Source of the DNA: Klebsiella phage KPP2018 | Strand: one strand, 5' to 3' | Sequence record: NC_110934.1 | Length of the DNA stretch: 64,000 nt | In this document: piece after piece, positions 1 through 31,111 of the stretch | How the letters are laid out: the number at the start of each line of letters is the position of its first letter | How positions within the stretch are numbered: position 1 is the stretch's first letter | Translations under genes and position numbers: made by a program | The notes under the pieces: generated by a model | The model's database searches: none | Seen by the model: only the letters and a program-made list of their open reading frames with translations | Told to the model about the DNA's origin: nothing

Positions 1-64
1 TCTTGTTCTGTCATGTTGCTCCCCCAGTTCAATTTATGTAATTATTATACAGAACTTTTGGAAA

Positions 65-352
65 CTAAGCAACTACATTTTTTAAGAATTTGATGCCTTT
101 CTTTCTCTTCTTATATTTCCACGTTAATGGATTCTGTCGATTATGAACACTTGAGATCTTTGTCTCATCAAAGTTCTTCAATATCATGTAATCACAAGAT
201 AGTTGTTCTAATGGAATGTGATCACCGTCAAAAGCGTGTACATAAGGTTGTTGACTAGCACGATAATGATAGACTTTGTTAATTCTACGTTTCAGCGACT
301 TATCCGCGCAGTAAATAAAGAAGTTTTCAGGATGCATCAGCAGCTCCTTCAA
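65..352 (-). CDS. hypothetical protein (95 aa); duplicated at 29529-29816
   Basis: ORF track; directly upstream (in transcription) of it lie tRNA genes, probably co-transcribed. Confidence 0.5.
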   Translation of the reverse strand: MKELLMHPENFFIYCADKSLKRRINKVYHYRASQQPYVHAFDGDHIPLEQLSCDYMILKNFDETKISSVHNRQNPLTWKYKKRKKGIKFLKNVVA

Positions 353-354
353 TT

Positions 355-429
355 TGGTGCACCCTGTTCGTATCGAACGAACCTCTCAAGCTCTTCAGGC
401 AAGCGCTAATCCATCTCAGCTAAAGGTGC
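355..429 (-). tRNA. tRNA, anticodon loop CUGAAGA (GAA, Phe-like); anticodon stem has two U-U mismatches
   Basis: Reverse complement GCACCUU..GUUCG-UUCGAUA-CGAAC-AGGGUGC-A-CCA: 7-bp acceptor, D-arm, T-arm and encoded CCA. Confidence 0.65.
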
Positions 430-435
430 AAATTT

Positions 436-512
436 TGGCAGGGGTAAAGGTATTCGAAACCTTTTCATGGGTTTTGGAGGCCCATTTGCAACCTATGCGT
501 ACCCCAATTATT
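436..512 (-). ncRNA. tRNA-like remnant (T-arm AAGGU-UUCGAAU-ACCUU, U1-U72 mismatch, 9-nt anticodon loop); possibly pseudo-tRNA
   Basis: T-arm and acceptor recognisable but D-arm and anticodon arm non-canonical. Confidence 0.3.
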
Positions 513-515
513 AAT

Positions 516-590
516 TGGCACACCCAACGAGGATCGAACTCGTGTTCCCACTGTGAAAGAGTGGTGTCCTAACCGCTAGACGATAGGTGC
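516..590 (-). tRNA. tRNA-Glu (UUC)
   Basis: Revcomp has acceptor, D-arm GUCUAGCGGUUAGGAC, anticodon stem CCACU/AGUGG with loop CUUUCAC, T-arm GAGUUCGAUCCUCG, CCA. Confidence 0.85.
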
Positions 591-597
591 ATTAAAT

Positions 598-685
598 TGG
601 TGGGGAAAGATGGAGTCGAACCACCCGAGTCGCAATGACAACTGATTTACAGTCAGCTCTGCTACCACTTACAGAATATTTCCCC
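598..685 (-). tRNA. tRNA-Tyr (GUA), type II with long variable arm
   Basis: Revcomp GGGGAAA..; anticodon loop CUGUAAA; long variable arm; T-arm GGUUCGACUCC; acceptor GGGGAAA/UUUCCCC; CCA. Confidence 0.8.
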
Positions 686-815
686 ATATTTAGAAGTATT
701 CAAAAATTCTCATTTAAACACTTTTAAATATGTTTCCAAATTAGATAAATATTATATCAAGTTTTATAGTATTGGGCAAGTCAAATTTTAAAGAACTTGC
801 CCAATGCTGTATTAG

Positions 816-1091
816 TTAGTCGAACTTAGGAGTGACAGTTAAGGAGAACGGAAGTTCAAAAACTTCTTCGCCCTCATCACTAATAGTGATTACACGACCT
901 TTAAGTTCAGACATTGAAATATCAATATCAGCTTTTGCATCTGGAGCCATGCCAGCTTCAATACATTTAGCTTTAATTTCCGGCAGAAGTTCTACATCGT
1001 AGAAATAAAGCCATTCAATCTCACCTTCCCAGCCTTCCCAGGATTTACAGATTGCACTTTCAATACCAGCAGCTATAACACGATTTTGCAT
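816..1091 (-). CDS. hypothetical protein (91 aa)
   Basis: ORF track; preceded by conserved early promoter/leader; duplicated at 30280-30555. Confidence 0.55.
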   Translation of the reverse strand: MQNRVIAAGIESAICKSWEGWEGEIEWLYFYDVELLPEIKAKCIEAGMAPDAKADIDISMSELKGRVITISDEGEEVFELPFSLTVTPKFD

Positions 1092-1160
1092 TCGTTAACT
1101 CCTTCATCAATTTATATAACTATTATATCAGAAATTTAAAGCAAAAGGCAAGTACATTTT
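1092..1160 (-). promoter_or_regulatory. Conserved T5-type early promoter (-35 TTGCCT, 17 bp, -10 TATAAT) plus conserved leader/RBS
   Basis: Minus-strand reading: ..TTGCCTtttgctttaaatttctgaTATAATagttatataaattgatgaaggag; member of >20-copy element family. Confidence 0.7.
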
Positions 1161-1181
1161 TAAAAATTCTGTTTGGAGGAG

Positions 1182-1388
1182 CTAAACTCCAGATTCTTCA
1201 GCCAAGTCTAGACTAATAAGAGATATAGCCATAATTGCTGCTCCGTGCTCTTTTTCTCCAGTCTCTTTAGCTAGAGTTATAATATCAAGAAATTGCTTAT
1301 GAAAATCTGCAACCTCTTGAGTTATACCTGCCTCAGCAATCATGCCTTTAAGCATGAAGCGTTGTGCGGTAATTTCAGGATTAGCCAT
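1182..1388 (-). CDS. hypothetical protein (68 aa)
   Basis: ORF track; start ATG overlaps stop of upstream small ORF (ATGGCTAA coupling). Confidence 0.5.
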   Translation of the reverse strand: MANPEITAQRFMLKGMIAEAGITQEVADFHKQFLDIITLAKETGEKEHGAAIMAISLISLDLAEESGV

Positions 1389-1548
1389 GTTGTTTCTCCA
1401 GTTTCATCTTTAATAGTCTACAAATAAAATCAATGTCTTCATCCGTGCCTAGATCTCTATCTTCAAGGGTTGCCTTGAAGTTTTTAGTCAATTCCATGAG
1501 AATAACTTCTCTAGAACGACGTGTTGGCGGAGGTGGATGTCTATACAT
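1381..1548 (-). CDS. hypothetical small protein (55 aa, MYRHPPPPTRRSREVILMEL...)
   Basis: Unlisted (<60 aa) ORF; stop overlaps start of 1182-1388 gene, typical translational coupling. Confidence 0.4.
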   Translation of the reverse strand: MYRHPPPPTRRSREVILMELTKNFKATLEDRDLGTDEDIDFICRLLKMKLEKQHG

Positions 1549-1563
1549 CTTATTTCCTTAATT

Positions 1564-1640
1564 TGGTAGGGGTGGTGGGATTCGAACCCACAAAACCTGA
1601 ATTTTAAGTCCAGTACCTATGCCAATTCGATTACACCCCC
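1564..1640 (-). tRNA. tRNA, anticodon loop CUUAAAA (UAA, Leu-like) but type-I length with short variable loop
   Basis: Revcomp GGGGGUG..acceptor pairs with CACCCCU; anticodon stem CUGGA/UUCAG; T-arm GUGGG-UUCGAAU-CCCAC; A-CCA. Confidence 0.6.
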
Positions 1641-1647
1641 ATGTAGT

Positions 1648-1836
1648 TTAGTCAATTACTTTTGAGGCTTCAAGGTAGTCGATATAGTGTACGTTTTCTA
1701 CCGTAATCATATAATCCGCCACTTTATCCATAGCTTGGGCTTCAGAGGTAGCTCTGGCTAACCTATATCCTTTTCTATACTCATCCGGGTATTCTCTATC
1801 TTGAATAAACACAACATAAACTATATATAGATCCAT
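1648..1836 (-). CDS. hypothetical protein (62 aa)
   Basis: ORF track. Confidence 0.45.
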   Translation of the reverse strand: MDLYIVYVVFIQDREYPDEYRKGYRLARATSEAQAMDKVADYMITVENVHYIDYLEASKVID

Positions 1837-1855
1837 TTGTGACCTCTATTTAATT

Positions 1856-1933
1856 TGGTGGCTCCCCGAGGATTCGAACCTACGTACCTTCCGGTTATGA
1901 GCCGGGTGCTCATACCATATGAGCTTGAGAACC
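1856..1933 (-). tRNA. tRNA-Met/Ile2 (CAU)
   Basis: Revcomp GGUUCUC..; anticodon stem CCGG with loop CUCAUAA; T-loop UUCGAAU (T-stem has mismatches); acceptor with two G-U pairs; CCA. Confidence 0.65.
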
Positions 1934-1939
1934 AAAATC

Positions 1940-2028
1940 TGGCGGAAGAAGTGGGAATCGAACCCACAAGGCTATATTTCAAACCGACAGATTAGCAATC
2001 TGCTGCAATACCATTATGCTATTCTTCC
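1940..2028 (-). tRNA. tRNA-Ser (GCU), type II
   Basis: Revcomp GGAAGAA..; anticodon stem GCAGA/UCUGU, loop UUGCUAA; long variable arm; T-arm GUGGG-UUCGAUU-CCCAC; G-CCA. Confidence 0.8.
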
Positions 2029-2049
2029 GAATTTATAAGATATATTATA

Positions 2050-2571
2050 TTAGAAATTTAGCTTCATAGCAAGAAAATTTTTCAAGTTTTCGGTAGACAT
2101 CTCATCCACATCTACAGGAGAAACAAATCCATTTAATTGTCTAGCAAACTTTTCACCAGCAGGATCATTGTCCCCAACAGCTACCAATTTAAAAGGTAGT
2201 AATTTCAGTTGCTTTAATAACGCTTTTCCTGGAGAAGAACCCAACATTGCCAGGGCTGGATAACCCGCATTATGTAATGCAACTGCCTTAAATACAGATT
2301 CAGCAATCAATACTACTTTTTCATCCCCATTGAGAGTTTCTAGTCCCCATACACACTGTGTAGTAGAATAAGTAAAGTATTTAGCTTCAAAGGGGCACTT
2401 ACCATGACCTTTTGGAGCAGAAGGATTATAAGTTTGATAGCCCCTCAACATTCCAGAGAAATCATACAACGGGACTGTTAGCCACCCTTCCGGACTTAAC
2501 CAGCAATGATATTTATCTGTATCAAATCCTCTAGATAAGAGGTGCTGTGTTAGCTCATCAACATTCATATT
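2050..2571 (-). CDS. Toprim-domain protein (DnaG-primase-like Toprim: E in IAES, DxD in AVGDNDPAG)
   Basis: ORF track 2050-2619; real start is Met17 (MNVDELTQ..) because the conserved TATAAT+ATAAATTTGAGAGAGG leader ends there. Confidence 0.6.
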   Translation of the reverse strand, partial: NMNVDELTQHLLSRGFDTDKYHCWLSPEGWLTVPLYDFSGMLRGYQTYNPSAPKGHGKCPFEAKYFTYSTTQCVWGLETLNGDEKVVLIAESVFKAVALHNAGYPALAMLGSSPGKALLKQLKLLPFKLVAVGDNDPAGEKFARQLNGFVSPVDVDEMSTENLKNFLAMKLNF

Positions 2572-2663
2572 TGGTTCCTCTCTCAAATTTATAGATATAT
2601 TATACAGAGAATTTAGCATTCAAGCAATCAAATTTTTTAACTTTTTAGAGGAAAATCATAGGG

Positions 2664-2686
2664 CACTTAAGGGTAGCAGATAAGTG
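2664..2686 (+). promoter_or_regulatory. Inverted repeat CACTTAAG-N7-CTTAAGTG-like (CACTTA..TAAGTG), candidate operator upstream of Gly-rich gene promoter
   Basis: cacttaagggtagcagataagtg: 6-bp arms are reverse complements. Confidence 0.3.
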
Positions 2687-2744
2687 GTGAGGACCAAAAT
2701 TTGTGACCCCACTAAAAATCCAGGGGCAATTTTTAAAGACCCCT

Positions 2745-2772
2745 TGACATTTTCGCTGGGGTAGTGTAAAGT
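2745..2772 (+). promoter_or_regulatory. sigma70-like promoter (TTGACA, 16 bp, TAAAGT) for the Gly-rich protein operon; copy 1
   Basis: cccTTGACAttttcgctggggtagtgTAAAGTatatg; not of the conserved phage early-promoter class. Confidence 0.55.
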
Positions 2773-2834
2773 ATATGTTATGGATGAGTGATCAAAGAGA
2801 CACACATTTTCTATATACTAGGAGGTGTCAAAAA

Positions 2835-3611
2835 ATGACAGAAGAAGTAGCTAAGAGTCCTGAGACCGTCGCTAGCGTTGCAGCAGAACTGCACCGTCAC
2901 GAGGAATCAGATAAGAAAAAGTGGGAGAAGGTCAGAGCCTACGAAGAGAAACATCGTGAACACGATGAAGATGATGAAGAAGATGACGATGATGAGTATT
3001 GTCATAAATATGGAAAACGTAAAATGCAAGAACCAGTAAACGTATTCACTAGTGGCTTCCCTGGCCTAATGGGTGGTTACCCAGCAAACGCAGGTGCTTT
3101 CGGTGGTGAAGGTATGGGACTATTCGGAGCTATCCTAATCGGTGCTCTATTAACAGGCGGATTCGGTGGTTTTGGTGGATTTGGTGGACGTGGTGTAGTT
3201 GGTGAAGGTACCGCAGTTGATGCAGTACTTCAGAACCAAGATACCGCTAGTATTCTAGCAGCTATTAACACTACTCGTACAGAAGCTAACCAGGGTACTG
3301 GAGCTGTTTTAAGCGCAGTTAACAATGGTTTTAGCCAGACATCCCAAAACCAGAGCCGTGATACTCAGTCTGTACTAACTACGATCTATGGTACGGGTGC
3401 TAATCTGTCTAATCAAATCTGCCAGGAAACTCGCAACGTTATTCAGGGTCAGTTCGATCTTTCTCGCCAGATTGATCAATCTTTCGCAGCTAACCAGATA
3501 GCTCGTGCACAAGATAAGTTTGATTCTGCACAGATCGCTTTCCAGCAGACTTTACAAACTAATAACCAGTTTGCCGCTGTTCAGGCTCAGATGTGTGCTA
3601 ACCAGTTATGA
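2835..3611 (+). pseudogene. Truncated copy (258 aa + 1 junction aa) of Gly-zipper/QN-rich membrane protein gene; truncated at repeat boundary 3605/3606
   Basis: RBS AGGAGG 9 nt before ATG 2835; identical to first 257 codons of the 331-aa gene at 32299-33291, then reads L-stop across the junction. Confidence 0.75.
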
Positions 3612-3711
3612 TAATGATCAAATCGATCAGCAAACGGCGGGCTTTTTGCTGGACACGCTGAAAGCGGAACACTGCACTAAAAAGCAAGCGGCAAAAATTA
3701 TTTTAATGTAA
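3607..3711 (+). pseudogene. Orphan C-terminal gene fragment (..YDNDQIDQQTAGFLLDTLKAEHCTKKQAAKIILM*) lacking N-terminus and start
   Basis: Open frame begins exactly at the repeat junction, ends at TAA 3709-3711, followed by hairpin GGGGCG-aaagtaa-CGCCCC. Confidence 0.5.
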
Positions 3712-3759
3712 TTAATAAAGGGGCGAAAGTAACGCCCCACTAACTAGGGAGTATTACAA

Positions 3760-3909
3760 ATGATTATTTTTCGAGCTATTCTGGCGGGTATCTTGGGCGC
3801 TATTTTATCTTTGTTTGCAATAGCTTTCGATGTTCACGCGGTTATTATCGGCGCGGGTATCGCTGCATTTTCTTATCTGCTGGGCTGCATGACTAGTAAA
3901 GGAGAATAA
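3760..3909 (+). CDS. small hydrophobic membrane protein (49 aa, MIIFRAILAGILGAILSLFAIAF...)
   Basis: Unlisted ORF; two predicted TM stretches; GC-richer than surrounding phage DNA. Confidence 0.5.
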   Translation: MIIFRAILAGILGAILSLFAIAFDVHAVIIGAGIAAFSYLLGCMTSKGE

Positions 3910-3911
3910 AA

Positions 3912-4124
3912 ATGATCCGCAACGTTTCTCTTGCACGTTCGAAAGGCTTTAAGCTGGTGGATGCTAACACGTTCGAGCGGGAAGATTGTAAAATCGAATA
4001 TGTAGCACGTAACAAAAATGCCTTTCGTGTTACTGAGAAAAAATTTGATAAGCGCGGCAACGTGATCGCTGAAACGGTTAAGCACTTTGCCACCTTTTAC
4101 GCTGCGTTTCGTGGGGTACTATGA
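3912..4124 (+). CDS. hypothetical protein (70 aa)
   Basis: ORF track; RBS GGAG 8 nt upstream; start 3 nt after previous stop. Confidence 0.55.
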   Translation: MIRNVSLARSKGFKLVDANTFEREDCKIEYVARNKNAFRVTEKKFDKRGNVIAETVKHFATFYAAFRGVL

Positions 4125-4261
4125 AAAGCGTTATCGTTATTGCCCTTGCAATGGTTGGCGGTTTTACCGCCACCTTATTCAAAAATGACCCCATTTCATT
4201 GGGGATCTTTATGTTATTATCTGGCTATCTAATTGGGAGGTTGTCAAATGGTTATTTATGA
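4121..4261 (+). CDS. small membrane protein (46 aa, MKSVIVIALAMVGGFTATLF...)
   Basis: Unlisted ORF; ATGA overlap with upstream stop; hydrophobic. Confidence 0.5.
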   Translation: MKSVIVIALAMVGGFTATLFKNDPISLGIFMLLSGYLIGRLSNGYL

Positions 4262-4592
4262 GGGCAATCGTTTTGTTGCTAATTGCCGTCCTGCATTATT
4301 AGCAAACTACTTAAATCAGCTTTCCCCAGCTTATAAGGGTGTTATTAATATTTATGAGGGCAAGGCGCATTATAAAATCAATGCGGTCGTTGCCCGTGAA
4401 CTAGCATTTCAATTTTTGACCTTTGCATCTTGTGATATTCAGGTCATGGGGGAAGCATTAATTGCAGAAAATGAAGATGATTTTATTAATATTTTCCGCA
4501 AGATATGCACCGAGCGGCTGATAATGAAAGGCGCGTATATTCAATCCACGGCTGATAGTATTGAAACAGCGTTTCGAAAGGTGGCGCAATGA
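4248..4592 (+). CDS. hypothetical protein (114 aa)
   Basis: ORF track 4233-4592; likely start ATG 4248 after RBS GGGAGG. Confidence 0.55.
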   Translation: MVIYEGNRFVANCRPALLANYLNQLSPAYKGVINIYEGKAHYKINAVVARELAFQFLTFASCDIQVMGEALIAENEDDFINIFRKICTERLIMKGAYIQSTADSIETAFRKVAQ

Positions 4593-4747
4593 AAAAGTTT
4601 TTAATAGCTGGCATGTTTCCGTTGTTGCCTTATGTAATTTGCTGGGCTTTATACGCTCATGGCGCTAGTGTTCCCGCTGTGGCTTCATTTGGTGTATCGG
4701 CGGGCTTTCTAGCTGGACTATTAGCAAGCGTATACTTACGCAAATAA
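4589..4747 (+). CDS. small membrane protein (52 aa, MKKFLIAGMFPLLPYVICWALYAHG...)
   Basis: Unlisted ORF; ATGA overlap with stop of previous gene. Confidence 0.5.
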   Translation: MKKFLIAGMFPLLPYVICWALYAHGASVPAVASFGVSAGFLAGLLASVYLRK

Positions 4748-4766
4748 TTAATAATGGGGCGTTATT

Positions 4767-4961
4767 ATGAGCAATAAAATTGTTGTAACCAAAATCAGTA
4801 CAATGGTTGATGTTTTTTACGTGCCCGATACGCCGGAAAACCGACAAGCGGTCGAGCGTGGAGAATATGATAAAGTGATTTATGATCACGATGGTTATTA
4901 TCAGCATTTAGTGGATTCCTACGGGGAGGAGGAGAAGATCACGCATCGACTACCAGACTAA
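4767..4961 (+). CDS. hypothetical protein (64 aa)
   Basis: ORF track; last gene before the non-coding repeat block. Confidence 0.5.
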   Translation: MSNKIVVTKISTMVDVFYVPDTPENRQAVERGEYDKVIYDHDGYYQHLVDSYGEEEKITHRLPD

Positions 4962-5000
4962 TAATCACGGGGCGCAACTATCAGGAAGTGCCCCCAATTC

Positions 5001-5025
5001 TCAAATGAGAATGATTCTCATTTGA
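5001..5025. promoter_or_regulatory. 25-bp palindrome TCAAATGAGAATGATTCTCATTTGA (Fur-box-like GATAATGATAATCATTATC relative)
   Basis: Perfect inverted repeat; half-site AATGAGAAT recurs in the downstream iterons. Confidence 0.4.
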
Positions 5026-5217
5026 CCGCGCCCGCGATGGTTAGCCTGCTAATGGTTAGGGTGTTACGTGTCGCCTTGTGTGATCGTTAGCGTGCTAACT
5101 AATTTTCAAGCCTCCTTCAATTTTGCCCTTGTTTTAGTATCCCCAACAAAATTAAACGCGTTAGAATGCGTTTGAGAGCGTTTTAACGCTATATTAGAAT
5201 TATTCACTGCGTAGGAA

Positions 5218-5237
5218 TACTGTATATTTATACAGTA
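5218..5237. promoter_or_regulatory. LexA (SOS) box TACTGTATATTTATACAGTA
   Basis: Perfect CTGT-N8-ACAG palindrome with AT-rich spacer matching E. coli LexA consensus. Confidence 0.55.
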
Positions 5238-5246
5238 GGATAAGCT

Positions 5247-5255
5247 GTGGATAAG
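5247..5255 (-). promoter_or_regulatory. DnaA box (TTATCCACA on minus strand)
   Basis: tgtggataa; second identical box at 5319-5327 and a 1-mismatch box (tgttgataa) at 5258-5266. Confidence 0.5.
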
Positions 5256-5318
5256 TCTGTTGATAACGCTTCAAAACGGCTAGAATTTTGTCAAGTCAAA
5301 TCGTGCTGTTAGTAAGTC

Positions 5319-5327
5319 TGTGGATAA
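5319..5327 (-). promoter_or_regulatory. DnaA box (TTATCCACA on minus strand), within repeated 13-mer AGTCTGTGGATAA
   Basis: Exact 9-mer consensus. Confidence 0.5.
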
Positions 5328-5350
5328 CTTAAATAACAGTGTTTCTCACT

Positions 5351-5530
5351 TCCGTTCTTAAATGAGAATCATTATCATTTGCATTTCACTATCTAACTAA
5401 TAATCATTCCGCTTTTTAAATGAGAATCATTCCGCTTTTTAAATGAGATTGATTCTCATTCCGCTTTTTAAATGCGAATTATTATCATTCTCATTCCGCT
5501 TTTTAAATGAGAATGATTCTTATTATCATT
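5351..5530. repeat. Iteron array A: 4-5 direct repeats of ~23-33 bp core CATTCCGCTTTTTAAATGAGAAT(CATT)
   Basis: cattccgctttttaaatgagaat repeated head-to-tail at 5405, 5428, 5455, 5488 with Fur-box-like AATCATTATCATT tails. Confidence 0.7.
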
Positions 5531-5538
5531 CGTATTTA

Positions 5539-5564
5539 GCGCAGGGCAATTGCCCTGCGCTTTT
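5539..5564. terminator. 22-bp perfect GC-rich palindrome GCGCAGGGCAATTGCCCTGCGC followed by TTTT (intrinsic-terminator-like or protein-binding site)
   Basis: Perfect dyad with 9-bp GC-rich arms and U-tract. Confidence 0.5.
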
Positions 5565-5787
5565 GTGCAAATCCGACATTGCTCCACGGGTGTTACGTGC
5601 GGGCGTGTATGTGCGAATCCGACAATCTTTGGTAGTGTGCAAATCCGACCCGAAAAATTTTTATAGTGTGCAAATCCGACAATGAATTTTCCCAAAAACT
5701 CCAGCAATCTCGAACTGCGTTCGAATCCTGTGGGGTATGTGCAAATTCGACACGGTTTTTCTAGGATTAAGATGTGCAAATCCGACA
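5565..5787. repeat. Iteron array B: six direct copies of GTGCAAATCCGACA (14 bp; variants GTGCGAATCCGACA, GTGCAAATTCGACA)
   Basis: Copies at 5565, 5611, 5637, 5668, 5739, 5774, irregular 26-71 bp spacing. Confidence 0.75.
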
Positions 5788-6098
5788 AGATTTTTGTGAC
5801 TTCGATTGGAGGGTGTGTGATTGTGTGGGTTTGGGGAGAAGATGAGAGAGCGAGAGAAAATAAGGGAAGAAACTGGAGGAGCAGCATGGGTGGCGTGTAA
5901 CGCCTGATTTGCTGCGTTTTTGGGGAAGAGTTGAGAAGATTTGGGTTAATTGGGCTTGGGGCGAGATAAAGTAAAATTTTATTAGCAAAATGGGGCAAAA
6001 TAGCTTGACAAGTGAAAATTCCTGTGGCTCTAAAAACTCAGGCAATCATGGGCCTTCGGCCCGAAATAATGCTGCTATTTTCAGGAGATTATATGTGC

Positions 6099-6165
6099 CT
6101 AAAAACTTAGGCATTTGTGCAAATCCGACCATAAATTTCTAGAAACACAATGTGCAAATCCGACA
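6099..6165. repeat. Palindrome TGCCTAAAAACTTAGGCA plus two further GTGCAAATCCGAC(A/C) iterons (6117, 6152)
   Basis: Same 14-mer as array B, 35 bp apart. Confidence 0.65.
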
Positions 6166-6204
6166 GTAATTTCTGGAAATGTGTTTTCAAAAAATGTCTC
6201 CTAG

Positions 6205-6295
6205 AAATAACCGCCCTCCCTATAACCGCCCTGTATTAAACCGCCTAGTATATGTTCCTAGAAACTTAGGAGAACCGCCCACTAGAAGCGTGATA
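6205..6295. repeat. Four direct repeats of AACCGCC(C) at ~13-22 bp spacing interleaved with CTAGAAA motifs
   Basis: ataaccgccctcc / ataaccgccctgt / taaaccgcctagt / gaaccgcccact. Confidence 0.5.
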
Positions 6296-6622
6296 TCTCG
6301 TGGGTATTTCGTGAGAACTCTGGAGTTTCTAGGAAAGTGTATGTGATCCTAGAGATGGGGAGCGGCAACAGGTGTATCATCTTGAACACAGATATTGCCT
6401 TTAAATATATTCGTATGTTTTAAAAGTAAATGATCCCCCATTTCATGTGAGATTCCTCGTGGGGCGCGTGAGTATTACGGAAGAACTCTAATATTGGCCC
6501 GCGCTAAGACTAGCCGCTATAGCACAGACGCAAATAGAGTTGTAATAATCATCGCCCCTAGAGTTCACAATAAGAGTTATTGTTAATCTATGAGATTATT
6601 ATAACATACATTTTTAATAACG

Positions 6623-7378
6623 TCAAGAAGATTTTGCTAACGTTTTTGGATTCTTCCTGGCTTTGAGATATATCCCTTTAGATGCTAGGTAAATATATGT
6701 TGCTAGGAATGAAGATTCTGATCCCGATTCCTCATAGGTTAACGTACCTCTAGGGTATTTATTTGTTTTAGGAGCATAGTTAAGCACAGCCGCAGTTAAT
6801 GATCCTAATCCTAGAACATCCGCAAGACGTCTAAAGGTATTCTCTTCATCATGAATAGCATAAAGAATGTTATCTTCAATATCCGTTAATGGAATCTTAC
6901 GGATATGAGATACTGCAATCCGTGCTATCATAGCTCCAATTGTTTTATTAATATCCTCGAAAGAAACACTCTCCATATATTTTAGAGGGGGAAGATGGTC
7001 ATATTTACATTTCTTAGGCGGAATAAGAAGTTGTTCAGGGTAAGCCTCTAGTGCCTGACGAACGTTTGCTTCTGGATATGTTGGCAAAGGTTCATCTATA
7101 ATAACATGTAAAAAGTTAGCTCTATGCCCTTTAGCAGTTGGATCTAAAGACTTGAGTACTTTATTCATATCCACATATGAATATGCTAGGTCTGCTTGAG
7201 GAGCATTAATATCAAACTTAATCTTCTTGCCCTCCCATTTAGCAGGGAACATCTCACAAACAAACATTACTGCATGTTTGACGTCTGGCTCTAGCTCTGA
7301 TAGACATTTGTGATCTGCTGTTACTGCTAAAGCGAGTATATTCTTAAATTTATTAGCTTCTTCAATCATATATCCCAT
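6623..7378 (-). CDS. hypothetical early protein (251 aa)
   Basis: ORF track; first of a long minus-strand early gene block. Confidence 0.6.
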   Translation of the reverse strand: MGYMIEEANKFKNILALAVTADHKCLSELEPDVKHAVMFVCEMFPAKWEGKKIKFDINAPQADLAYSYVDMNKVLKSLDPTAKGHRANFLHVIIDEPLPTYPEANVRQALEAYPEQLLIPPKKCKYDHLPPLKYMESVSFEDINKTIGAMIARIAVSHIRKIPLTDIEDNILYAIHDEENTFRRLADVLGLGSLTAAVLNYAPKTNKYPRGTLTYEESGSESSFLATYIYLASKGIYLKARKNPKTLAKSS

Positions 7379-7707
7379 GCCTGCTGACTAGTATCACTAA
7401 CTTGTGTCTTTTTCTCTCTTCGTGGTTTAAAAGTTCCTGTAGTATTACTTTTACTAGGTTCTAATTTATACCACAGCATTCCTAGCTGGTTAACCATATG
7501 AGCAACATTTCTAGGGGTCAATGGAGGTAGGGATTCACAGTTTGATATCTCTATTAATATATTAAATAATTCTGTCTCTTTAGCCTTACTGTTTACTACC
7601 ACCACGTATTCTAATGTCTCTACCTCAGAATCCTCGTCTTTATAGTAAAGGCTAAGAGTAATTAAATTTTCCCCAGCAGGAGTTATTTTTGTTTTACCAA
7701 ATATCAT
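7366..7707 (-). CDS. hypothetical protein (113 aa)
   Basis: ORF track; overlaps neighbours by a few nt. Confidence 0.55.
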   Translation of the reverse strand: MIFGKTKITPAGENLITLSLYYKDEDSEVETLEYVVVVNSKAKETELFNILIEISNCESLPPLTPRNVAHMVNQLGMLWYKLEPSKSNTTGTFKPRREKKTQVSDTSQQAWDI

Positions 7708-8321
7708 TAATTACCTCTCTTATCTTCATTAAGCGCAGCTCCCAACGCCTCCATAATAGCATCTTCTAAACTTCCATGTTTACTAGGATCATTAAAATGA
7801 ATAGCATAAACAGAACTCCTAGAAACTCCAGCATCCGCAGGTGCTACGCTTCGCATATCAGATTCAAAAGCTTCTTGAGTATGCTTTAACTGTACAGAAG
7901 GGCCGTAATCTTCACCAAACTTGTATGACTGCGTACTACTTATCACACCCCCACAAGGAACATTGTGCATATCCGACATTAATCTTTTATCGGAGTTATT
8001 CAGCATTGCGATTGGCCCTGACTGCCACGGATCTCGAATAGTTACTGGAGTACTGGGGCGGTTCACTTCAGCCTTCACAAGTTTGTACCCTGCATCGATT
8101 AATGCGTTAATTAGATTATCAGCTGGGATGCGAGCCTTGCCAAAAATCTTACGAGCATCTTCGAGCTTATCCTCAAGATCTTTACATGCTCTAAGGTCAG
8201 TGTGTGCAAATGTTAGCTTCATAGATTTAAATTGTACAGTAGCAGTTAAATCTTTAAAGCTATAATCCCATGTGTTCAGTTCATGATCCGGTACTACTTG
8301 AATAGGTTGTTGTGCAAACAT
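7707..8321 (-). CDS. hypothetical protein (204 aa)
   Basis: ORF track. Confidence 0.6.
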   Translation of the reverse strand: MFAQQPIQVVPDHELNTWDYSFKDLTATVQFKSMKLTFAHTDLRACKDLEDKLEDARKIFGKARIPADNLINALIDAGYKLVKAEVNRPSTPVTIRDPWQSGPIAMLNNSDKRLMSDMHNVPCGGVISSTQSYKFGEDYGPSVQLKHTQEAFESDMRSVAPADAGVSRSSVYAIHFNDPSKHGSLEDAIMEALGAALNEDKRGN

Positions 8322-8506
8322 TATATATTCTCCAGTTTGTCTAACAGTTTATGAGCTGCGATGTTATATTGAAAGAGTTCATTATTGAGAATTTCATTCT
8401 CACAGGTTAACTCTAGATTCTTAGTATTGAGGCGACTGCAAATCAGTATCAGTCCCAGGATTATTAGGAGTGAGCCTCCTAGTAATACAAGAAGTAATGT
8501 TTCCAT
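8321..8506 (-). CDS. small membrane protein (61 aa)
   Basis: ORF track; single hydrophobic helix. Confidence 0.5.
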   Translation of the reverse strand: METLLLVLLGGSLLIILGLILICSRLNTKNLELTCENEILNNELFQYNIAAHKLLDKLENI

Positions 8507-8739
8507 TATTTAATTCCCATGTAACGTTTGAGATATCCGATGAAGTCTTCCGCTGTATGCTCTACGCTACCTTGAGCTACGAATAGCTTGAGAGCTTCAC
8601 GTTGTAGTTTGAGAGCAGCTAACTCACCCCGTAATTTTATCAGATCTTCTGCTAGTTCTCTAGCTCTACGCATAATAACAAAAGATACAAGTACTACGAT
8701 GAATAACATAACTACTAAAATAATTGCTATGATTTCCAT
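8506..8739 (-). CDS. membrane protein (77 aa) with C-terminal coiled coil
   Basis: ORF track; N-terminal TM helix IIAIILVVMLFIVVLVSFVIM. Confidence 0.5.
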   Translation of the reverse strand: MEIIAIILVVMLFIVVLVSFVIMRRARELAEDLIKLRGELAALKLQREALKLFVAQGSVEHTAEDFIGYLKRYMGIK

Positions 8740-9017
8740 ATTAACATCCAGCTTTTATCACACATTTGGGCATGGTCTATCAGTTCATTCATTGATGTAT
8801 TGTTATCATAAATGCACTCTAGTATATACCTTCTATCAAATTCGTCAACCAAATATTCTACGTTATTTATTACTACTTTATACAGATCTGGGACTAGAGA
8901 GCATGTATTTGGTACGGGGCGACTGCTTAAGTCTATTTCGTTTTTACCCCATTCTGTTTTAAATAGTTTGTTACTAAGTGCTGCTAATGGGTTTGACCAC
9001 ACAATATAGCTACTCAC
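8727..9017 (-). CDS. hypothetical protein (96 aa)
   Basis: ORF track. Confidence 0.5.
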   Translation of the reverse strand: MSSYIVWSNPLAALSNKLFKTEWGKNEIDLSSRPVPNTCSLVPDLYKVVINNVEYLVDEFDRRYILECIYDNNTSMNELIDHAQMCDKSWMLIWKS

Positions 9018-9453
9018 TATTTATCTCCCTTCTTAACTTTGAAAACTTATTATACCAAACTATATGATTATCGTCAATTACAAATTTATGATAACATGCT
9101 GGCACGGTATAAGTTCCATAATCCGTGACACGCTGCACAACCTTGTGTGCACACAGTCGACAACCATGCCCTTCTAAATGAGATCTAGCAGTTTGCCAGT
9201 AATACCCTTCATGATCTGGGCAATAGATCTCGACTTGCTGTTGCATTGTTTTATAATTTACACGCTCATACCCAAAGAAAGCTCCATGAACTGCAACAGC
9301 TTTCTTGATAAATATAAGGTTTAGTGCTTCTTGCTGAAAGTCGGGATGTAGCTGCTTAATCTTAGTTCTATTAATAGATCCATCCGATTTGATAAACCTA
9401 TTTATTGGGAAGTTGTTAGCTTCCTCGATTAGTAATTCATTTACTTTTTCTCT
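9010..9453 (-). CDS. Cys/His-rich putative zinc-binding protein (possible HNH-like nuclease; ..YCPDHEGYYWQTARSHLEGHGCRLCAH..)
   Basis: ORF track 9010-9558; shortened to Met36 to avoid 100-nt overlap with next gene. Confidence 0.4.
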   Translation of the reverse strand, partial: REKVNELLIEEANNFPINRFIKSDGSINRTKIKQLHPDFQQEALNLIFIKKAVAVHGAFFGYERVNYKTMQQQVEIYCPDHEGYYWQTARSHLEGHGCRLCAHKVVQRVTDYGTYTVPACYHKFVIDDNHIVWYNKFSKLRREINSE

Positions 9454-9457
9454 CATA

Positions 9458-9682
9458 TTAGATATTCTCACACCTAAGGTAGAAACATTCGTAAGCATCA
9501 CCAGTAAACTCTTTACCTTGTAGTATACATTTAGCCTGGTCTTCTGGTACTCCGGCATCTAATAATTGTTGTTTACTTGGCTTTTCAGCGAATACCTTTA
9601 CAAAATATTCACCATCCTGATTATACTCATTTATATCTCTAGTAAGGACATATACTTGCATTTGAAATTCCTTGAAACACAA
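9458..9682 (-). CDS. hypothetical protein (74 aa)
   Basis: ORF track. Confidence 0.45.
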   Translation of the reverse strand: MCFKEFQMQVYVLTRDINEYNQDGEYFVKVFAEKPSKQQLLDAGVPEDQAKCILQGKEFTGDAYECFYLRCENI

Positions 9683-9715
9683 AAGGCCAGAACAATTAAG
9701 TCCTGGCCTCTAGAA

Positions 9716-10153
9716 TTAATGAAGTTGTTTACCACTTCTTAACATAGTGGCCGTTTCCATAAGATTTAACGTTGTATCACGCTTTTTGATTTGTTTGTCG
9801 AGTTCATCGGTGCGTTTGCCAATGTAAGCGTTAATAGCCATATTCATAGCTGAGGCGAGATCTTCTTTGGTTATCTCTTCATCATCTAAGGCTAATTTAG
9901 CCAAAGAATCGAACGCAATAGAAAGTCCTATAAGATCTGAGGTTTCACTAGCTAAGATGGGATCAATATTATCTATTGTTACTTCTAACATAGAGTTAAC
10001 AATATCTTCTCCGTCTACTAGACCAGATTCAATATTACTCTCCCATTCCTTCATCTGCTCCAGCAATGGATTTTTCTTTTCTGTCATGGTAGAGATTTCC
10101 TGTGTCAGTTGGTAAGAAGGACGATTGAGCTTTAGGTGGATGTTGTTTAGCAA
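9716..10153 (-). CDS. hypothetical acidic protein (145 aa; true start probably internal Met)
   Basis: ORF track; overlaps next ORF. Confidence 0.5.
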   Translation of the reverse strand: MLNNIHLKLNRPSYQLTQEISTMTEKKNPLLEQMKEWESNIESGLVDGEDIVNSMLEVTIDNIDPILASETSDLIGLSIAFDSLAKLALDDEEITKEDLASAMNMAINAYIGKRTDELDKQIKKRDTTLNLMETATMLRSGKQLH

Positions 10154-10496
10154 TCCAGTTAAGAATCAGCACACGACTAGGAACAATATCAGTGTTGTAC
10201 CAGAAATCGTGAACCCATTGACGAGCATCCTCAAACTTACCAAATTTATATGCTTTCTTAAACAATTTAAACCCAAAACAATCTGGTGTAAAGTCTACTT
10301 CACGATACTGAACTACTTTAGAACCGGTTAGGTCTTGGATTGCTGCATTAATTTCTGTATGAGAGAATTTTGTTTCGTGAAACTTATTAAAGAATCGGTA
10401 GTTGAAGCGTCCGTTCGTTTCGACAAACAACTGGATAAAGAGATCGTTAAATTGATTATCAAACCAGTAATTCTGTAGTTGTTGTAGTGCTGTCAT
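10035..10496 (-). CDS. hypothetical protein (153 aa)
   Basis: ORF track. Confidence 0.55.
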   Translation of the reverse strand: MTALQQLQNYWFDNQFNDLFIQLFVETNGRFNYRFFNKFHETKFSHTEINAAIQDLTGSKVVQYREVDFTPDCFGFKLFKKAYKFGKFEDARQWVHDFWYNTDIVPSRVLILNWIAKQHPPKAQSSFLPTDTGNLYHDRKEKSIAGADEGMGE

Positions 10497-29459: not shown

Positions 29460-29528
29460 ATTTATCTTGTTCTGTCATGTTGCTCCCCCAGTTCAATTTA
29501 TGTAATTATTATACAGAACTTTTGGAAA

Positions 29529-29816: not shown

Positions 29817-29818
29817 TT

Positions 29819-29893
29819 TGGTGCACCCTGTTCGTATCGAACGAACCTCTCAAGCTCTTCAGGCAAGCGCTAATCCATCTCAGCTAAAGGTGC
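29819..29893 (-). tRNA. tRNA (GAA, Phe-like), copy 2
   Basis: Identical to 355-429. Confidence 0.65.
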
Positions 29894-29979
29894 AAATTTT
29901 GGCAGGGGTAAAGGTATTCGAAACCTTTTCATGGGTTTTGGAGGCCCATTTGCAACCTATGCGTACCCCAATTATTAAT

Positions 29980-30054: not shown

Positions 30055-30061
30055 ATTAAAT

Positions 30062-31104: not shown

Positions 31105-31111
31105 ATGTAGT

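What the first reader, a model, noticed from the sequence alone, without database searches (positions are those of the whole stretch)
5351..6165. Two distinct iteron families flanking a perfect 22-bp palindrome
Array A is CATTCCGCTTTTTAAATGAGAAT, in 4-5 head-to-tail copies, each ending in a Fur-box-like AATGAGAATCATT. Array B is GTGCAAATCCGACA, 8 copies with 2 single-nt variants. The two arrays are separated by GCGCAGGGCAATTGCCCTGCGC-TTTT.

Iteron pairs of this type normally titrate a Rep/initiator protein or a partition/handcuffing protein. No obvious Rep gene is adjacent, so either a distant phage protein or a host protein recognises them. Short ORF-finder hits across the arrays (5443-6045) are repeat artefacts.
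Basis: seen in the sequence. Interest (0 to 1): 0.65.

Follow-up and report, generated by a model that had tools for sequence, protein, structure and literature searches.

The report
T5 phage injection-stop repeat region
These repeats are the long-known non-coding repeat cluster at the inner end of the terminal repeat of a T5-like phage, where DNA injection pauses and the repeat ends; it is not a replication origin, and the proteins that read the repeats have still not been identified.

Summary
There are four full copies, plus one or two degenerate ones, of CATTCCGCTTTTTAAATGAGAAT. A perfect 22-bp palindrome followed by TTTT comes next. Then come eight same-strand copies of GTGCAAATCCGACA. All are far above chance.

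It is not new. The window is a T5-like phage (Demerecviridae), and the locus aligns element by element with "Repeat Region 3" of phage T5. The T5 GenBank record already annotates direct repeat C (Array A), palindrome J with major nick 1 at 7.9 %, and direct repeat D (Array B). The literature treats this region as the injection-stop signal, with no mechanism known.

The Rep/partition iteron reading is not supported.

What I add:
- Array A holds the five best Fur-box matches in the 64 kb window. It sits beside a near-consensus LexA box and DnaA boxes, and all three are conserved even in a Vibrio T5-like phage.
- The conserved part of the palindrome is the T5 nick consensus.
- The 14-mer forms two clusters that bracket the exact right end of the terminal repeat (window 6030|6031). 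In the Vibrio phage it has diverged, which suggests a phage-encoded reader.

These additions are inferences, not tests.

Verdict: already known, low to moderate interest.

The parts
5001..5025 (.). Outlying perfect 25-bp palindrome TCAAATGAGAATGATTCTCATTTGA. It has the same Fur-box-like core as Array A.
   Evidence: (I20). Fur PWM score 16.1. Relatives have an equivalent high-scoring site about 350 bp left of the array.
5218..5237 (.). LexA-box-like palindrome TACTGTATATTTATACAGTA, equivalent to T5 'palindrome D'.
   Evidence: Matches the SOS-box consensus at 19 of 20 positions and is the only such hit in 64 kb, against 0.01 expected. Maps to T5 9330-9349. Present in all relatives examined, including Sugarland, My1 and Vibrio PG07.
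5246..5327 (-). DnaA boxes within T5 IRD'-spacer-IRC'. Exact TTATCCACA at 5246-5254 and 5319-5327; TTATCAACA at 5258-5266, 3 bp from the first.
   Evidence: Described for T5-like phages by Davison 2020. Conserved in the alignment and in PG07.
5347..5531 (+). Array A, equivalent to T5 direct repeat C copies 1-4 (DRE1/2) with palindromes E-I. Units of 23, 29 or 35 nt, each carrying a Fur-box-like dyad. The T5 first-step-transfer shear point (about 9618) maps to about 5512.
   Evidence: repeats. (T5 annotation and mapping). (Fur PWM scores 18.4, 15.9, 14.5, 20.9). (unit number varies between close relatives). (shear point).
5538..5564 (+). As RNA it forms a 10-bp GC-rich hairpin followed by UUUU.
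   Evidence: I22. Fold energy -24.4 kcal/mol, z = -5.4. Maps to T5 9650-9666. The stem core and right arm are invariant in 12 genomes. The left arm is imperfect in most, and the loop is 4 nt in some genomes and 11 nt in others.
5554..5561 (-). Match to the T5 major-nick consensus 5'-R/GCGCRGG (AGCGCAGG), homologous to T5 'major single-stranded nick 1, 7.9 %'.
   Evidence: T5 annotation, mapping and consensus from PMC3517423. Minus-strand AGCGCAGG occurs only at 5554, 18599 and 34003, a spacing that fits the T5 nicks at 7.9, 18.5 and 32.6 %. The PhageTerm 'repeat end' of phage Sugarland falls exactly at this position.
5565..5787 (+). Array B cluster 1: six copies of T-GTGC-R-AATCCGAC-A/C, equivalent to T5 direct repeat D copies 1-6. 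Lies inside the terminal repeat.
   Evidence: The logo from 102 Markadamsvirinae copies has sharp edges. The same six-copy cluster occurs in all Markadamsvirinae examined, and in My1.
6030..6031 (.). Predicted right end of the terminal repeat, and therefore the physical right end of virion DNA: ..AAAATTCCTGTGGCTC|TAAAAACTCAGG. It lies inside a roughly 130-bp highly conserved block.
   Evidence: The annotated repeat end of T5, BF23, MM-1 and SIA3lw is at the identical homologous nucleotide, and Stitch is 4 nt away. Five IMG/VR genome contigs end at ..CTGTGGCTC or ..CTGTGGCCC. The window holds only one copy, so this is by homology.
6117..6165 (+). Array B cluster 2: two copies, equivalent to T5 direct repeat D copies 7-8. 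Lies 87 bp beyond the repeat end, in unique DNA.
6209..6279 (+).
   Evidence: Four of the five + strand occurrences in the window lie here. Conserved in relatives and present in Sugarland (D11).
7965..7978 (+). Isolated ninth 14-mer, GTGCATATCCGACA, inside ORF 7707-8321 (minus strand).
   Evidence: MM-1 has a 2-mismatch copy at the homologous position. May be chance plus conservation of the coding sequence.

Best explanation
The locus is this phage's copy of T5 'Repeat Region 3'. That is the roughly 1.6-kb non-coding region at the right end of the long terminal repeat of T5-like phages (Demerecviridae).

Identities:
- Array A is T5 direct repeat C (DRE).
- The palindrome is T5 palindrome J.
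- Array B is T5 direct repeat D.

The region acts in cis on the DNA molecule, not as a replicon. It marks two things: the point where first-step transfer of the leftmost ~8 % of the genome pauses, and the point where the terminal repeat ends.

My reading of the parts, all inferred:
1. Array A, with the LexA-like box and DnaA boxes just to its left, is a pad of sites with the consensus of conserved host regulators (Fur, LexA, DnaA). It lies at the last DNA to enter in the first step. Probability that Fur really binds: about 0.3.
2. The conserved part of the palindrome is the recognition sequence of the phage nicking system (major nick 1). Its GC hairpin plus U-run may also stop rightward transcription at the end of the entered DNA.
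3. Array B is a set of directional sites for a phage-encoded DNA-binding protein. Its two clusters bracket the site-specific cut that makes the right genome end. Probability of a role in end formation or packaging: about 0.3. Probability of a role in the pause or restart of transfer: about 0.3.
For: Shown:
- Megablast finds 454 T5-like records. The best is Salmonella phage Th1, 94.7 % over 1.8 kb, at 8.5-10.2 kb of its genome.
- The alignment with T5 is 84 % identical. Every annotated T5 feature maps in order onto the window: palD, IRD', DRB, IRC', DRC1-4, palE-J, nick 1, DRD1-8, DRA2/3 and the repeat end.
- The literature places the injection stop signal in this region. [quoted passage not shown]
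- The 14-mer array is found in 8-10 same-strand copies in all Enterobacterales T5-like phages examined. This includes Sugarland (Klebsiella) and My1 (Pectobacterium), whose spacers barely align.
- The 14-mer logo has sharp edges.
- The repeat end lies between the two clusters at one conserved nucleotide in T5, BF23, MM-1 and SIA3lw (Stitch 4 nt away), and five IMG/VR genome contigs end there.
- The five best Fur-PWM hits in 64 kb all lie in 5001-5533. They score within the range of the known iron boxes used to build the matrix, even when the look-alike site and the idealised consensus are left out.
- AATGAGAATCATTAT is identical to part of a listed iron box.
- The Fur-like, LexA-like and DnaA boxes keep their sequence in Vibrio phage PG07. 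There the 14-mer is replaced by TGTGAGTGCGGATTCTA in a two-cluster layout; its last 12 nt match the 14-mer at 9 of 12 positions (my count).
- The nick consensus sits on the minus strand at the right arm, and similar sites recur at T5-like intervals.

Inferred: everything about which protein binds which element, and what binding does.
Against: - No binding or functional experiment exists for any of these repeats. Davison 2020 explicitly assigns them no role.
- The window holds one copy of the repeat, so the repeat end is placed by homology only.
- The inverted partner IRC-spacer-IRD, which most T5-like phages carry, is absent from the window. The sequence left of 3606 is an anomalous duplication, so the context in this genome may be rearranged or misassembled.
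- Fur boxes here do not overlap an obvious iron-regulated promoter.
- The half-site is TGAGAAT rather than the consensus TGATAAT.
- A conserved phage protein could equally read Array A. The putative DNA-recognition segment of A2 is well conserved between T5 and PG07.
- The terminator scan did not call the palindrome.
- The GC hairpin is absent in Sugarland, My1 and PG07.
- No 14-mer occurs at the left boundary of the repeat.
- The annotated repeat ends of pork27, saus176N and Kenya-K16/K36 lie elsewhere.
Confidence: 0.8

Rival explanations
1. The two arrays are iterons of a replication origin, or a partition or handcuffing site, that titrate a Rep/initiator or Par protein.
For: Direct repeats in one orientation lie next to DnaA boxes and AT-rich DNA, which resembles iteron origins. 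Davison also notes a likeness to oriC. A primase-like ORF lies 2.7 kb to the left.
Against: - The homologous T5 region is the end of the first-step-transfer DNA, and T5 origins map near the genome centre.
- Replication genes are not expressed while only this DNA is in the cell.
- No initiator or Par gene is adjacent in any relative.
- Array B spacing runs from 26 to 343 bp and is split by the repeat end.
- The primase-like ORF is adjacent only through a duplication that none of the 275 matching phage records shares.
Confidence: 0.04
2. Array A is a true operator array for the host iron regulator Fur. Together with LexA and DnaA it coats the last-entered part of the first-step DNA. It then acts as a roadblock or anchor, or links the pause to host state. 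This is compatible with the best explanation.
For: - The five best Fur PWM hits of the window lie here, scoring 14.5-20.9 against 13.4-25.7 for known boxes. No Markov simulation out of 1000 reached this.
- There is a 15-nt identity to a listed iron box.
- The sequence is conserved across phages of Escherichia, Salmonella, Klebsiella, Pectobacterium and Vibrio, whereas A2 is only 39 % identical between T5 and PG07.
- A consensus LexA box and DnaA boxes lie adjacent.
Against: - No binding data exist.
- The sites are not at a promoter.
- Each half-site carries G where, to my knowledge, Fur-family boxes have T.
- Six sites cannot titrate cellular Fur.
- Binding inside the cell does not by itself explain why DNA still outside stops moving.
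- No paper in the searchable library makes this link.
Confidence: 0.3
3. Array B is the recognition site of the packaging machinery (small terminase or an accessory protein). Its two clusters flank the site-specific cut that creates the right genome end, in the manner of pac or cosB sites. On this view it is not part of the injection stop.
For: - The conserved repeat end lies in the gap between the clusters: 243-244 bp after copy 6 and 87-88 bp before copy 7 in T5, BF23, MM-1 and SIA3lw. My1 is likewise split 6 and 3, and genome contigs end at this site.
- Long direct terminal repeats need a fixed recognised position.
- The motif is directional.
- In PG07 the motif is diverged but the two-cluster layout is kept, as expected for a co-evolving phage protein.
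- Arrays of this 13-mer are absent from 185,579 species genomes, apart from one T5-like contig and five unrelated tandem repeats.
Against: - There is no 14-mer at the left boundary of the repeat.
- No terminase-binding data exist for any T5-like phage.
- Cluster 1 starts only about 50 bp from the first-step shear point, which fits a transfer role equally well.
- The small terminase is about 49 % identical between PG07 and T5-like phages, which does not discriminate.
Confidence: 0.3
4. The palindrome is mainly an intrinsic transcription terminator that ends rightward transcription at the edge of the first-step DNA. On this view the palindromy as such, or a dyad-binding protein, is not the point.
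For: - A 10-bp GC stem at -24.4 kcal/mol is followed by UUUU on the + strand only.
- Loop length differs between genera while the stem is kept, which argues against a fixed-spacing dyad operator.
- The rightward pre-early ORFs end at 4961.
- A promoter-like site at 5172-5200 lies upstream.
Against: - The consensus scan did not call it, and the T-run is only 4 long.
- T5 annotates its terminators further left.
- The hairpin is missing in Sugarland, My1 and PG07, whereas CTGCGC next to the first 14-mer is kept in Sugarland. The nick site therefore looks like the older function.
- Rfam gives only sub-threshold terminator-like hits.
Confidence: 0.35
5. Davison's model. Membrane-bound DnaA holds the DnaA boxes and so stops transfer. 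A1/A2 then cut at one of the palindromes in both repeats, freeing the DNA and making cohesive ends for circle formation.
For: - DnaA boxes are present and conserved.
- In this phage the perfect palindrome carries the nick consensus on both strands, 22 bp apart. If both were cut, this would give a 22-nt cohesive break.
Against: - The model is untested, and its author says it gives the repeats no role.
- The + strand consensus exists only in the minority of relatives with a perfect left arm.
- The consensus also occurs un-nicked on the other strand of T5.
Confidence: 0.1

Closest known systems
Phage T5 'Repeat Region 3', the injection stop signal (iss) region. Sources: GenBank AY587007.1 features direct repeat C, palindrome J and direct repeat D; Heusterspreute 1987 and Wang 2005 as cited by Davison 2020.
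   Same: The elements correspond one to one, in the same order and orientation: palD, DnaA-box inverted repeats, DRC x4 with palE-I, palJ with nick 1, DRD 1-8 and the repeat end. The flanking genes are also the same.
   Different: - Palindrome J is perfect here (22/24 bp) but imperfect in T5.
- T5 has a ninth DRD copy that is absent here.
- Array A unit sequences and numbers differ slightly.
- The inverted partner in Repeat Region 2 is missing from the window.
- The DNA left of 3606 is an anomalous duplication.
Iteron-type origins and partition sites of plasmids and phages (for example P1, lambda ori, pSC101); from general knowledge.
   Same: Clustered short direct repeats in one orientation, next to DnaA boxes.
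   Different: There is no adjacent initiator or Par gene, spacing is irregular, the array is split by a genome end, and the T5 origins lie elsewhere.
Fur operators with several overlapping boxes, such as the aerobactin-type iron box GATAATGAGAATCATTATT listed in PMC10665472.
   Same: The sequence: a 15-nt identity, PWM scores in the range of known boxes, and several adjacent sites.
   Different: The sites are not placed over a promoter of an iron-regulated gene, they lie on a virulent phage, and binding is untested.
Packaging recognition sites in which repeats flank the cut (P1 pac, SPP1 pac, lambda cosB; the short-repeat arrays next to the T7 terminal repeat); from general knowledge, not tested here.
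   Same: Two clusters of a short directional motif bracket a site-specific genome end.
   Different: No terminase binding is known. The repeat is about 10 kb long, and the motif occurs at only one of its two boundaries.
T5 major nick sites, consensus 5'-R/GCGCRGG (PMC3517423, citing the AY543070 annotation).
   Same: The right arm of the palindrome matches on the nicked (minus) strand at the position of the 7.9 % nick.
   Different: Here the left arm also matches, on the + strand. It is not known whether that site is cut.

Membership tests
T5-type Repeat Region 3 / injection-stop region | Lies in the long non-coding gap between the rightward pre-early genes and the first leftward early genes, at the right end of the left terminal repeat. 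| tested here: met
   The non-coding interval is 4962-6622. The flanks are homologous to T5 7670-8565 and to the genes right of the MM-1 repeat. In Th1 the match lies at 8.5-10.2 kb.
T5-type Repeat Region 3 / injection-stop region | The same ordered set of repeats: palD, IRD'-spacer-IRC' with paired DnaA boxes, DRC x4, palJ, and DRD in two clusters. | tested here: met
   Coordinate mapping of every T5 feature. Multiple alignments with 8-11 relatives.
T5-type Repeat Region 3 / injection-stop region | The terminal-repeat boundary falls inside the region. | tested here: inconclusive
   The boundary sequence is identical to that of T5, BF23, MM-1 and SIA3lw, and to the ends of genome contigs. However, the window holds only one copy, so duplication in this genome cannot be seen.
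T5-type Repeat Region 3 / injection-stop region | Inverted partner IRC-spacer-IRD about 3 kb to the left (most T5-like phages; absent in Davison's 'Type 4'). | tested here: not met
   No inverted repeat partner of 5220-5350 occurs in window 1-6700. The expected position is replaced by duplicated early-region DNA.
T5-type Repeat Region 3 / injection-stop region | DNA transfer pauses here in vivo. | not testable with these tools
   Demonstrated only for T5 and BF23, according to the literature.
Iteron replication origin or partition site | An adjacent gene for the protein that binds the repeats (Rep or ParB). | tested here: not met
   The neighbouring ORFs match PHROG families of unknown function. 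Relatives annotate only hypothetical proteins. The primase-like ORF is a duplication artefact of context.
Iteron replication origin or partition site | Regular, helically phased spacing of the repeats. | tested here: not met
   Array B spacing is 46, 26, 31, 71, 35, 343, 35. Array A spacing is 23, 29, 35.
Iteron replication origin or partition site | Origin or incompatibility activity. | not testable with these tools
   The literature places T5 origins near the genome centre.
Fur box | Sequence match within the range of validated boxes. | tested here: met
   PWM built from 11 listed iron boxes. Five hits score 14.5-20.9, against 13.4-25.7 for the training sites. The result survives leaving two sites out.
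Fur box | Overlaps the promoter of an iron-regulated gene. | tested here: not met
   There is no gene downstream on either strand within the non-coding region. Only weak promoter-like matches overlap the array.
Fur box | Bound by Fur. | not testable with these tools
   No data found.
Intrinsic terminator | GC-rich stem-loop followed by a U-run, downstream of a transcription unit on the same strand. | tested here: inconclusive
   The hairpin is strong (-24.4 kcal/mol) and UUUU follows. The consensus scan did not report it, and it is not conserved outside Markadamsvirinae.
T5 major nick site | 5'-R/GCGCRGG on the nicked (minus) strand, at the mapped position. | tested here: met
   AGCGCAGG at 5554-5561 on the minus strand. 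It is homologous to the T5 annotated nick 1. Recurrences at 18599 and 34003 fit the T5 nick map.
T5 major nick site | Physical nick in virion DNA. | not testable with these tools
   Indirect hint only: the PhageTerm end called for Sugarland coincides with this site.

The most novel reading that the evidence does not exclude
The end of the first-step-transfer DNA of T5-like phages is a deliberate landing pad for three abundant, conserved host regulators: one consensus LexA box, paired DnaA boxes and an array of five to seven Fur boxes. These keep their host-consensus sequences from Escherichia to Vibrio phages.

The neighbouring 14-mer array is read by a co-evolving phage protein and brackets the genome-end cut.

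If true, host Fur, LexA and DnaA occupancy helps set or time the pause in DNA injection, or protects or anchors the entered DNA. The 14-mers would then be the long-sought recognition site either for making 10-kb terminal repeats or for the A1/A2-dependent restart.
Probability: 0.25. Interest if true: 0.6.

Novelty: already known. Interest (0 to 1): 0.3.

Why it matters
The two-step DNA injection of T5 has been known since the 1960s, and its stop signal is still unexplained.

The finding itself only rediscovers the annotated repeat cluster, but the comparison gives three concrete handles:
- Array A, the LexA-like box and the DnaA boxes have the sequence of host-regulator sites and stay constant across host genera.
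- The nick consensus is the conserved part of the palindrome.
- The 14-mer clusters bracket the exact genome end and change in a Vibrio relative.

Each of these turns into a simple binding or mutant-host experiment. Such experiments could finally assign functions to the repeats.

For genome annotation, the result also warns against three errors: calling ORFs in this region, calling it an origin, and trusting terminus calls that actually land on the nick.

Tried and rejected
- **Rfam scan of 4800-6800.** Only sub-threshold hits on the hairpin, so no known RNA family.
- **Terminator and promoter consensus scan.** The palindrome was not called, and the promoter-like sites are weak apart from one on the minus strand at 6626-6598.
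- **Search for the inverted partner of IRD'-IRC' in the window.** None found.
- **Coding reading of the long minus-strand ORF 5468-5998.** Rejected, because the open frame is broken or shifted in most relatives.
- **Host-chromosome arrays of the 14-mer.** One scan of 185,579 species genomes gave a single T5-like contig and five unrelated tandem repeats, in Nostoc, Myxococcota, Bacteroidales and Alphaproteobacteria. These are coding or 22-nt repeats that share the 13-mer by chance.
- **The 14-mer at the left repeat boundary or elsewhere in the T5 repeat.** None.
- **Using divergence of A2 (39 %) or the small terminase (~49 %) between T5-like phages and Vibrio PG07 to pick the 14-mer reader.** Uninformative.
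- **Reading the 14-mer as a CRP, DnaA or Fis site.** By-eye comparison only; the fit is poor, so I did not pursue it.
- **Motif versus spacer conservation within Markadamsvirinae.** The contrast is only modest (0.935 against 0.884 majority fraction), because the whole region is conserved. The stronger argument comes from Sugarland and My1.
- **Davison 2015 review.** Could not be fetched.
Full report
**1. What is there**

The interval 4962-6622 has no conserved ORF and carries 30-37 stop codons in each of the six frames.

Array A. The 23-mer CATTCCGCTTTTTAAATGAGAAT occurs at 5405, 5428, 5457 and 5492, with 0-1 mismatch. A degenerate copy starts at 5347. Spacing is 23, 29 and 35 nt, so only the first two copies abut. 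The extra 6 or 12 nt are further ATTCTC/ATTATC half-sites. The functional-looking core is a dyad, AATGAGAAT-S-ATTCTCATT. It has 7 hits at up to 3 mismatches, all within 5004-5524, against 0.06 expected by chance.

The palindrome. GCGCAGGGCAATTGCCCTGCGC at 5539-5560 is perfect. It is 24 bp with the flanking A/T pair, and TTTT follows.

Array B. GTGCAAATCCGACA occurs eight times on the + strand, against 0.31 expected at up to 2 mismatches. Four copies are exact and four carry one change. They form a cluster of six (5565-5787) and a cluster of two (6117-6165), 343 nt apart start to start. A ninth, 1-mismatch copy lies at 7965-7978 inside an ORF.

**2. What genome this is**

Megablast of 4900-6700 hits 454 phage records, all T5-like (Demerecviridae). 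The best is Salmonella phage Th1, at 94.7 % over the whole query, located at 8467-10224 of its genome. In phage MM-1 the match lies at the right end of the annotated left terminal repeat.

**3. It is already annotated in T5**

The T5 record AY587007.1 annotates the following in this order:
- palindrome D
- inverted repeats D' and C', with direct repeat B
- direct repeat C copies 1-4, overlapping palindromes E-I
- palindrome J, with 'major single-stranded nick 1, 7.9 %' on its right arm
- direct repeat D copies 1-6
- direct repeat A copies 2-3
- the end of the left terminal repeat at 10139
- direct repeat D copies 7-9

A pairwise alignment is 84 % identical. Every feature maps onto the window:
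- DRC1-4 map to 5356-5531, which is Array A.
- palJ maps to 5544-5558.
- Nick 1 maps to 5553-5560.
- DRD1-6 correspond to the six cluster-1 copies at 5565-5787. T5 DRD5 sits about 10 nt further right than window copy 5, so the pairwise mapping misregisters it.
- The repeat end maps to 6030.
- DRD7-8 map to 6116-6165.

Davison's 2020 comparison of 25 T5-like phages calls this 'Repeat Region 3' and describes it as follows:
- It lies within a 1662-bp non-coding stretch.
- It contains the presumed injection stop signal.
- The calculated shear point of the first-step DNA is at about T5 9618, which is window ~5512, inside Array A.
- DnaA boxes are present.
[quoted passage not shown] The finding is thus a rediscovery of a known, functionally unexplained structure.

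**4. Why the iteron/Rep reading fails**

- T5 origins map near the genome centre, and replication genes are not in the first-step DNA.
- No initiator or partition gene is adjacent here or in relatives.
- Array B is irregularly spaced and is cut in two by the genome end.
- The one replication-like ORF nearby is a 189-aa primase-like ORF at 2050-2619. It belongs to window 1-3605, which is a 100 % identical second copy of 29465-33069.
- The 29-33 kb copy is the one in normal context. The junction at 3605/3606 occurs in none of the 275 matching phage records and truncates an ORF.

**5. Array A and its left neighbours look like host-regulator sites**

I built a weight matrix from the 11 Gram-negative iron boxes listed in PMC10665472.
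- The five best hits in the 64-kb window all fall in 5001-5533, with scores 20.9, 18.4, 16.1, 15.9 and 14.5. The training sites score 13.4-25.7.
- None of 1000 composition-matched simulations reaches this.
- The result holds when the look-alike training site and the idealised consensus are left out.
- AATGAGAATCATTAT (5361-5375) is identical to part of the listed box GATAATGAGAATCATTATT.

Just to the left are two more kinds of site. TACTGTATATTTATACAGTA (5218-5237) matches the SOS-box consensus at 19 of 20 positions and is the only such hit in the window. Two exact DnaA boxes, with a one-mismatch partner 3 bp from the first, lie beside it.

All three site types are present in T5, BF23, Stitch, Gostya9, Th1, Sugarland (Klebsiella), My1 (Pectobacterium) and Vibrio phage PG07. 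In Sugarland, and in stretches of My1 and PG07, the Fur-like dyads recur every 35 bp.

The number of Array A units changes between close relatives. Th1 and BF23 lack a unit, and Gostya9 has several extra.

I found no paper linking Fur or LexA boxes to this region. That these proteins bind here is an inference. A conserved phage protein remains possible, and the putative recognition segment of A2 is conserved between T5 and PG07.

**6. The palindrome**

The T5 nick consensus is 5'-R/GCGCRGG on the nicked strand.
- On the window's minus strand, AGCGCAGG occurs only at 5554-5561, 18599-18606 and 34003-34010. The spacing of 13.0 and 28.4 kb fits the T5 major nicks at 7.9, 18.5 and 32.6 %.
- In 12 genomes, TTGCCCTGCGCTT-T/A-TGTGC is invariant. 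This stretch comprises the right arm, the T-run and the start of the first 14-mer.
- The left arm is imperfect in most relatives, and the loop is 4 nt in some genera and 11 nt in others.
- The PhageTerm 'repeat end' of phage Sugarland falls exactly at ..CCTGCGC|TT. I take this to be a terminus call that landed on the nick.
- As RNA, the element is a -24.4 kcal/mol hairpin followed by UUUU on the + strand only. It may therefore also terminate rightward transcription at the edge of the entered DNA.
- Against that, the scan did not call it, and the hairpin is missing in Sugarland, My1 and PG07.
- Because the palindrome is perfect here, the nick consensus is also present on the + strand at 5538-5545. 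Whether that site is cut is unknown.
- In vitro, T5 ejection pauses have been reported to coincide with nick positions.

**7. Array B**

- The logo from 102 Markadamsvirinae copies has sharp edges: T-GTGC-R-AATCCGAC-A/C.
- Sugarland and My1 each keep 9 copies on the same strand, although their spacers hardly align with the window.
- PG07 has instead TGTGAGTGCGGATTCTA, arranged as three tandem copies, a gap and two more. By my count its last 12 nt match the 14-mer at 9 of 12 positions in the same orientation.
- The host-like boxes stay constant while this motif drifts. For that reason I favour a phage-encoded reader. This is an inference.
- The annotated repeat end of T5, BF23, MM-1 and SIA3lw is at the same nucleotide..CTGTGG(C/A)TC|TAAAAACTCAGG, and Stitch is 4 nt away. 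It lies 243-244 bp after copy 6 and 87-88 bp before copy 7. Five IMG/VR genome contigs end there. The window has the identical sequence at 6030|6031.
- My1 is also split, with 6 copies to the left and 3 to the right.
- The ends annotated for pork27 and saus176N also fall between the clusters, but elsewhere in the gap. The Kenya-K16 and K36 ends fall outside the array.
- No 14-mer lies at the left repeat boundary or anywhere else in the T5 repeat.
- Long direct terminal repeats require a fixed recognised position. A role in end formation or packaging is therefore as well supported by position as a role in the transfer pause or restart.
- Arrays of this 13-mer are otherwise absent from 185,579 species genomes. 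The exceptions are one T5-like contig and five unrelated tandem repeats. In IMG/VR they occur in contigs of 96-123 kb, the size range of T5-like genomes.

**8. Verdict**

- Identity and general role: this is the cis-acting region at the first-step-transfer end and terminal-repeat boundary of a T5-like phage. High confidence.
- Which proteins read Array A and Array B, and how the pause works: unknown. My preferred assignments each carry roughly 0.3 probability.
- Novelty: already known.
- Interest: low to moderate. It is carried by the testable host-factor and genome-end readings rather than by the repeats themselves.

Noticed in passing
window 1-3605 and 29465-33069: A 3605-bp segment is present twice at 100 % identity. 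The 29-33 kb copy is colinear with relatives. The first copy is joined at 3605/3606 to terminal-repeat DNA, a junction seen in none of 275 related records, and it truncates a 350-aa ORF to 278 aa. This is either an assembly chimera or a rare rearrangement of the terminal repeat.
   Followed up: partly
window 5218-5237: A near-consensus LexA (SOS) box, TACTGTATATTTATACAGTA, equivalent to T5 palindrome D. It is conserved in all T5-like phages examined, including a Vibrio phage. The 2020 review of this region does not mention it as a LexA site.
   Followed up: partly
window 6209-6279: A third repeat family, AACCGCC(C), occurs four times, three of them at 15-nt spacing. It holds 4 of the 5 + strand occurrences in 64 kb and is conserved in relatives and in Sugarland. 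If the entry point is at about 5512 and the tail is about 250 nm long (roughly 735 bp of DNA; tail length), this stretch would sit near the head-tail connector during the pause. That is a geometric guess only.
   Followed up: no
window 5960-6090: The most conserved block of the region surrounds the repeat end. It contains TTGACA 24 nt before the end. A GGGCCTTCGGCCC hairpin with a UUCG loop starts 20 nt after it, at 6051-6063. Both halves of the end sequence recur in swapped order at 5691-5735: AAAAACTCCAGCAATC, a gap, then ATCCTGTGG (D16, 53, 73).
   Followed up: no
window 18599-18606 and 34003-34010 (minus strand): Two further exact matches to the T5 nick consensus AGCGCAGG lie on the same strand. 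Their distances fit the T5 major nicks at 18.5 and 32.6 %.
   Followed up: no
L006 (Klebsiella phage Sugarland) 1770: The 'repeat region predicted by PhageTerm' ends exactly at ..CCTGCGC|TTATGTGCG. This is the nick-consensus position directly before the first 14-mer, not the conserved genome end of other T5-like phages. It is probably a terminus call that landed on the nick.
   Followed up: partly
L008 (Vibrio phage PG07) 3341-3802: In the position of Array B there are five copies of TGTGAGTGCGGATTCTA, arranged as 3 + 2 with a 367-nt gap. The last 12 nt match the enterobacterial 14-mer at 9 of 12 positions (my count). The Fur-like, LexA-like and DnaA boxes upstream are unchanged.
   Followed up: partly
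window 7965-7978: An isolated 1-mismatch copy of the 14-mer (GTGCATATCCGACA) lies inside the minus-strand ORF 7707-8321. MM-1 has a 2-mismatch copy at the same place.
   Followed up: no
window 6626-6598 (minus strand): The best sigma-70-like promoter match of the region (TTGACG, 17 nt, TATAAT with an upstream TG; 11 of 12). It points leftward into the non-coding repeats, not into a gene.
   Followed up: no
window 2050-2619 and 31514-32083 (minus strand): A 189-aa ORF matches only the central part of phage DNA-primase profiles (phrog_849, positions 141-337 of 435). Relatives annotate it as 'DNA primase'.
   Followed up: no
L018-L021, L023 (MAG and cyanobacterial contigs): Tandem repeats in Nostocales (51-nt units), a Myxococcota MAG (33-nt units), a Bacteroidales MAG and an Alphaproteobacteria MAG (22-nt units) happen to contain the same 13-mer, GTGCRAATCCGAC. 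They have no similarity to the phage region and are judged to be chance matches.
   Followed up: yes
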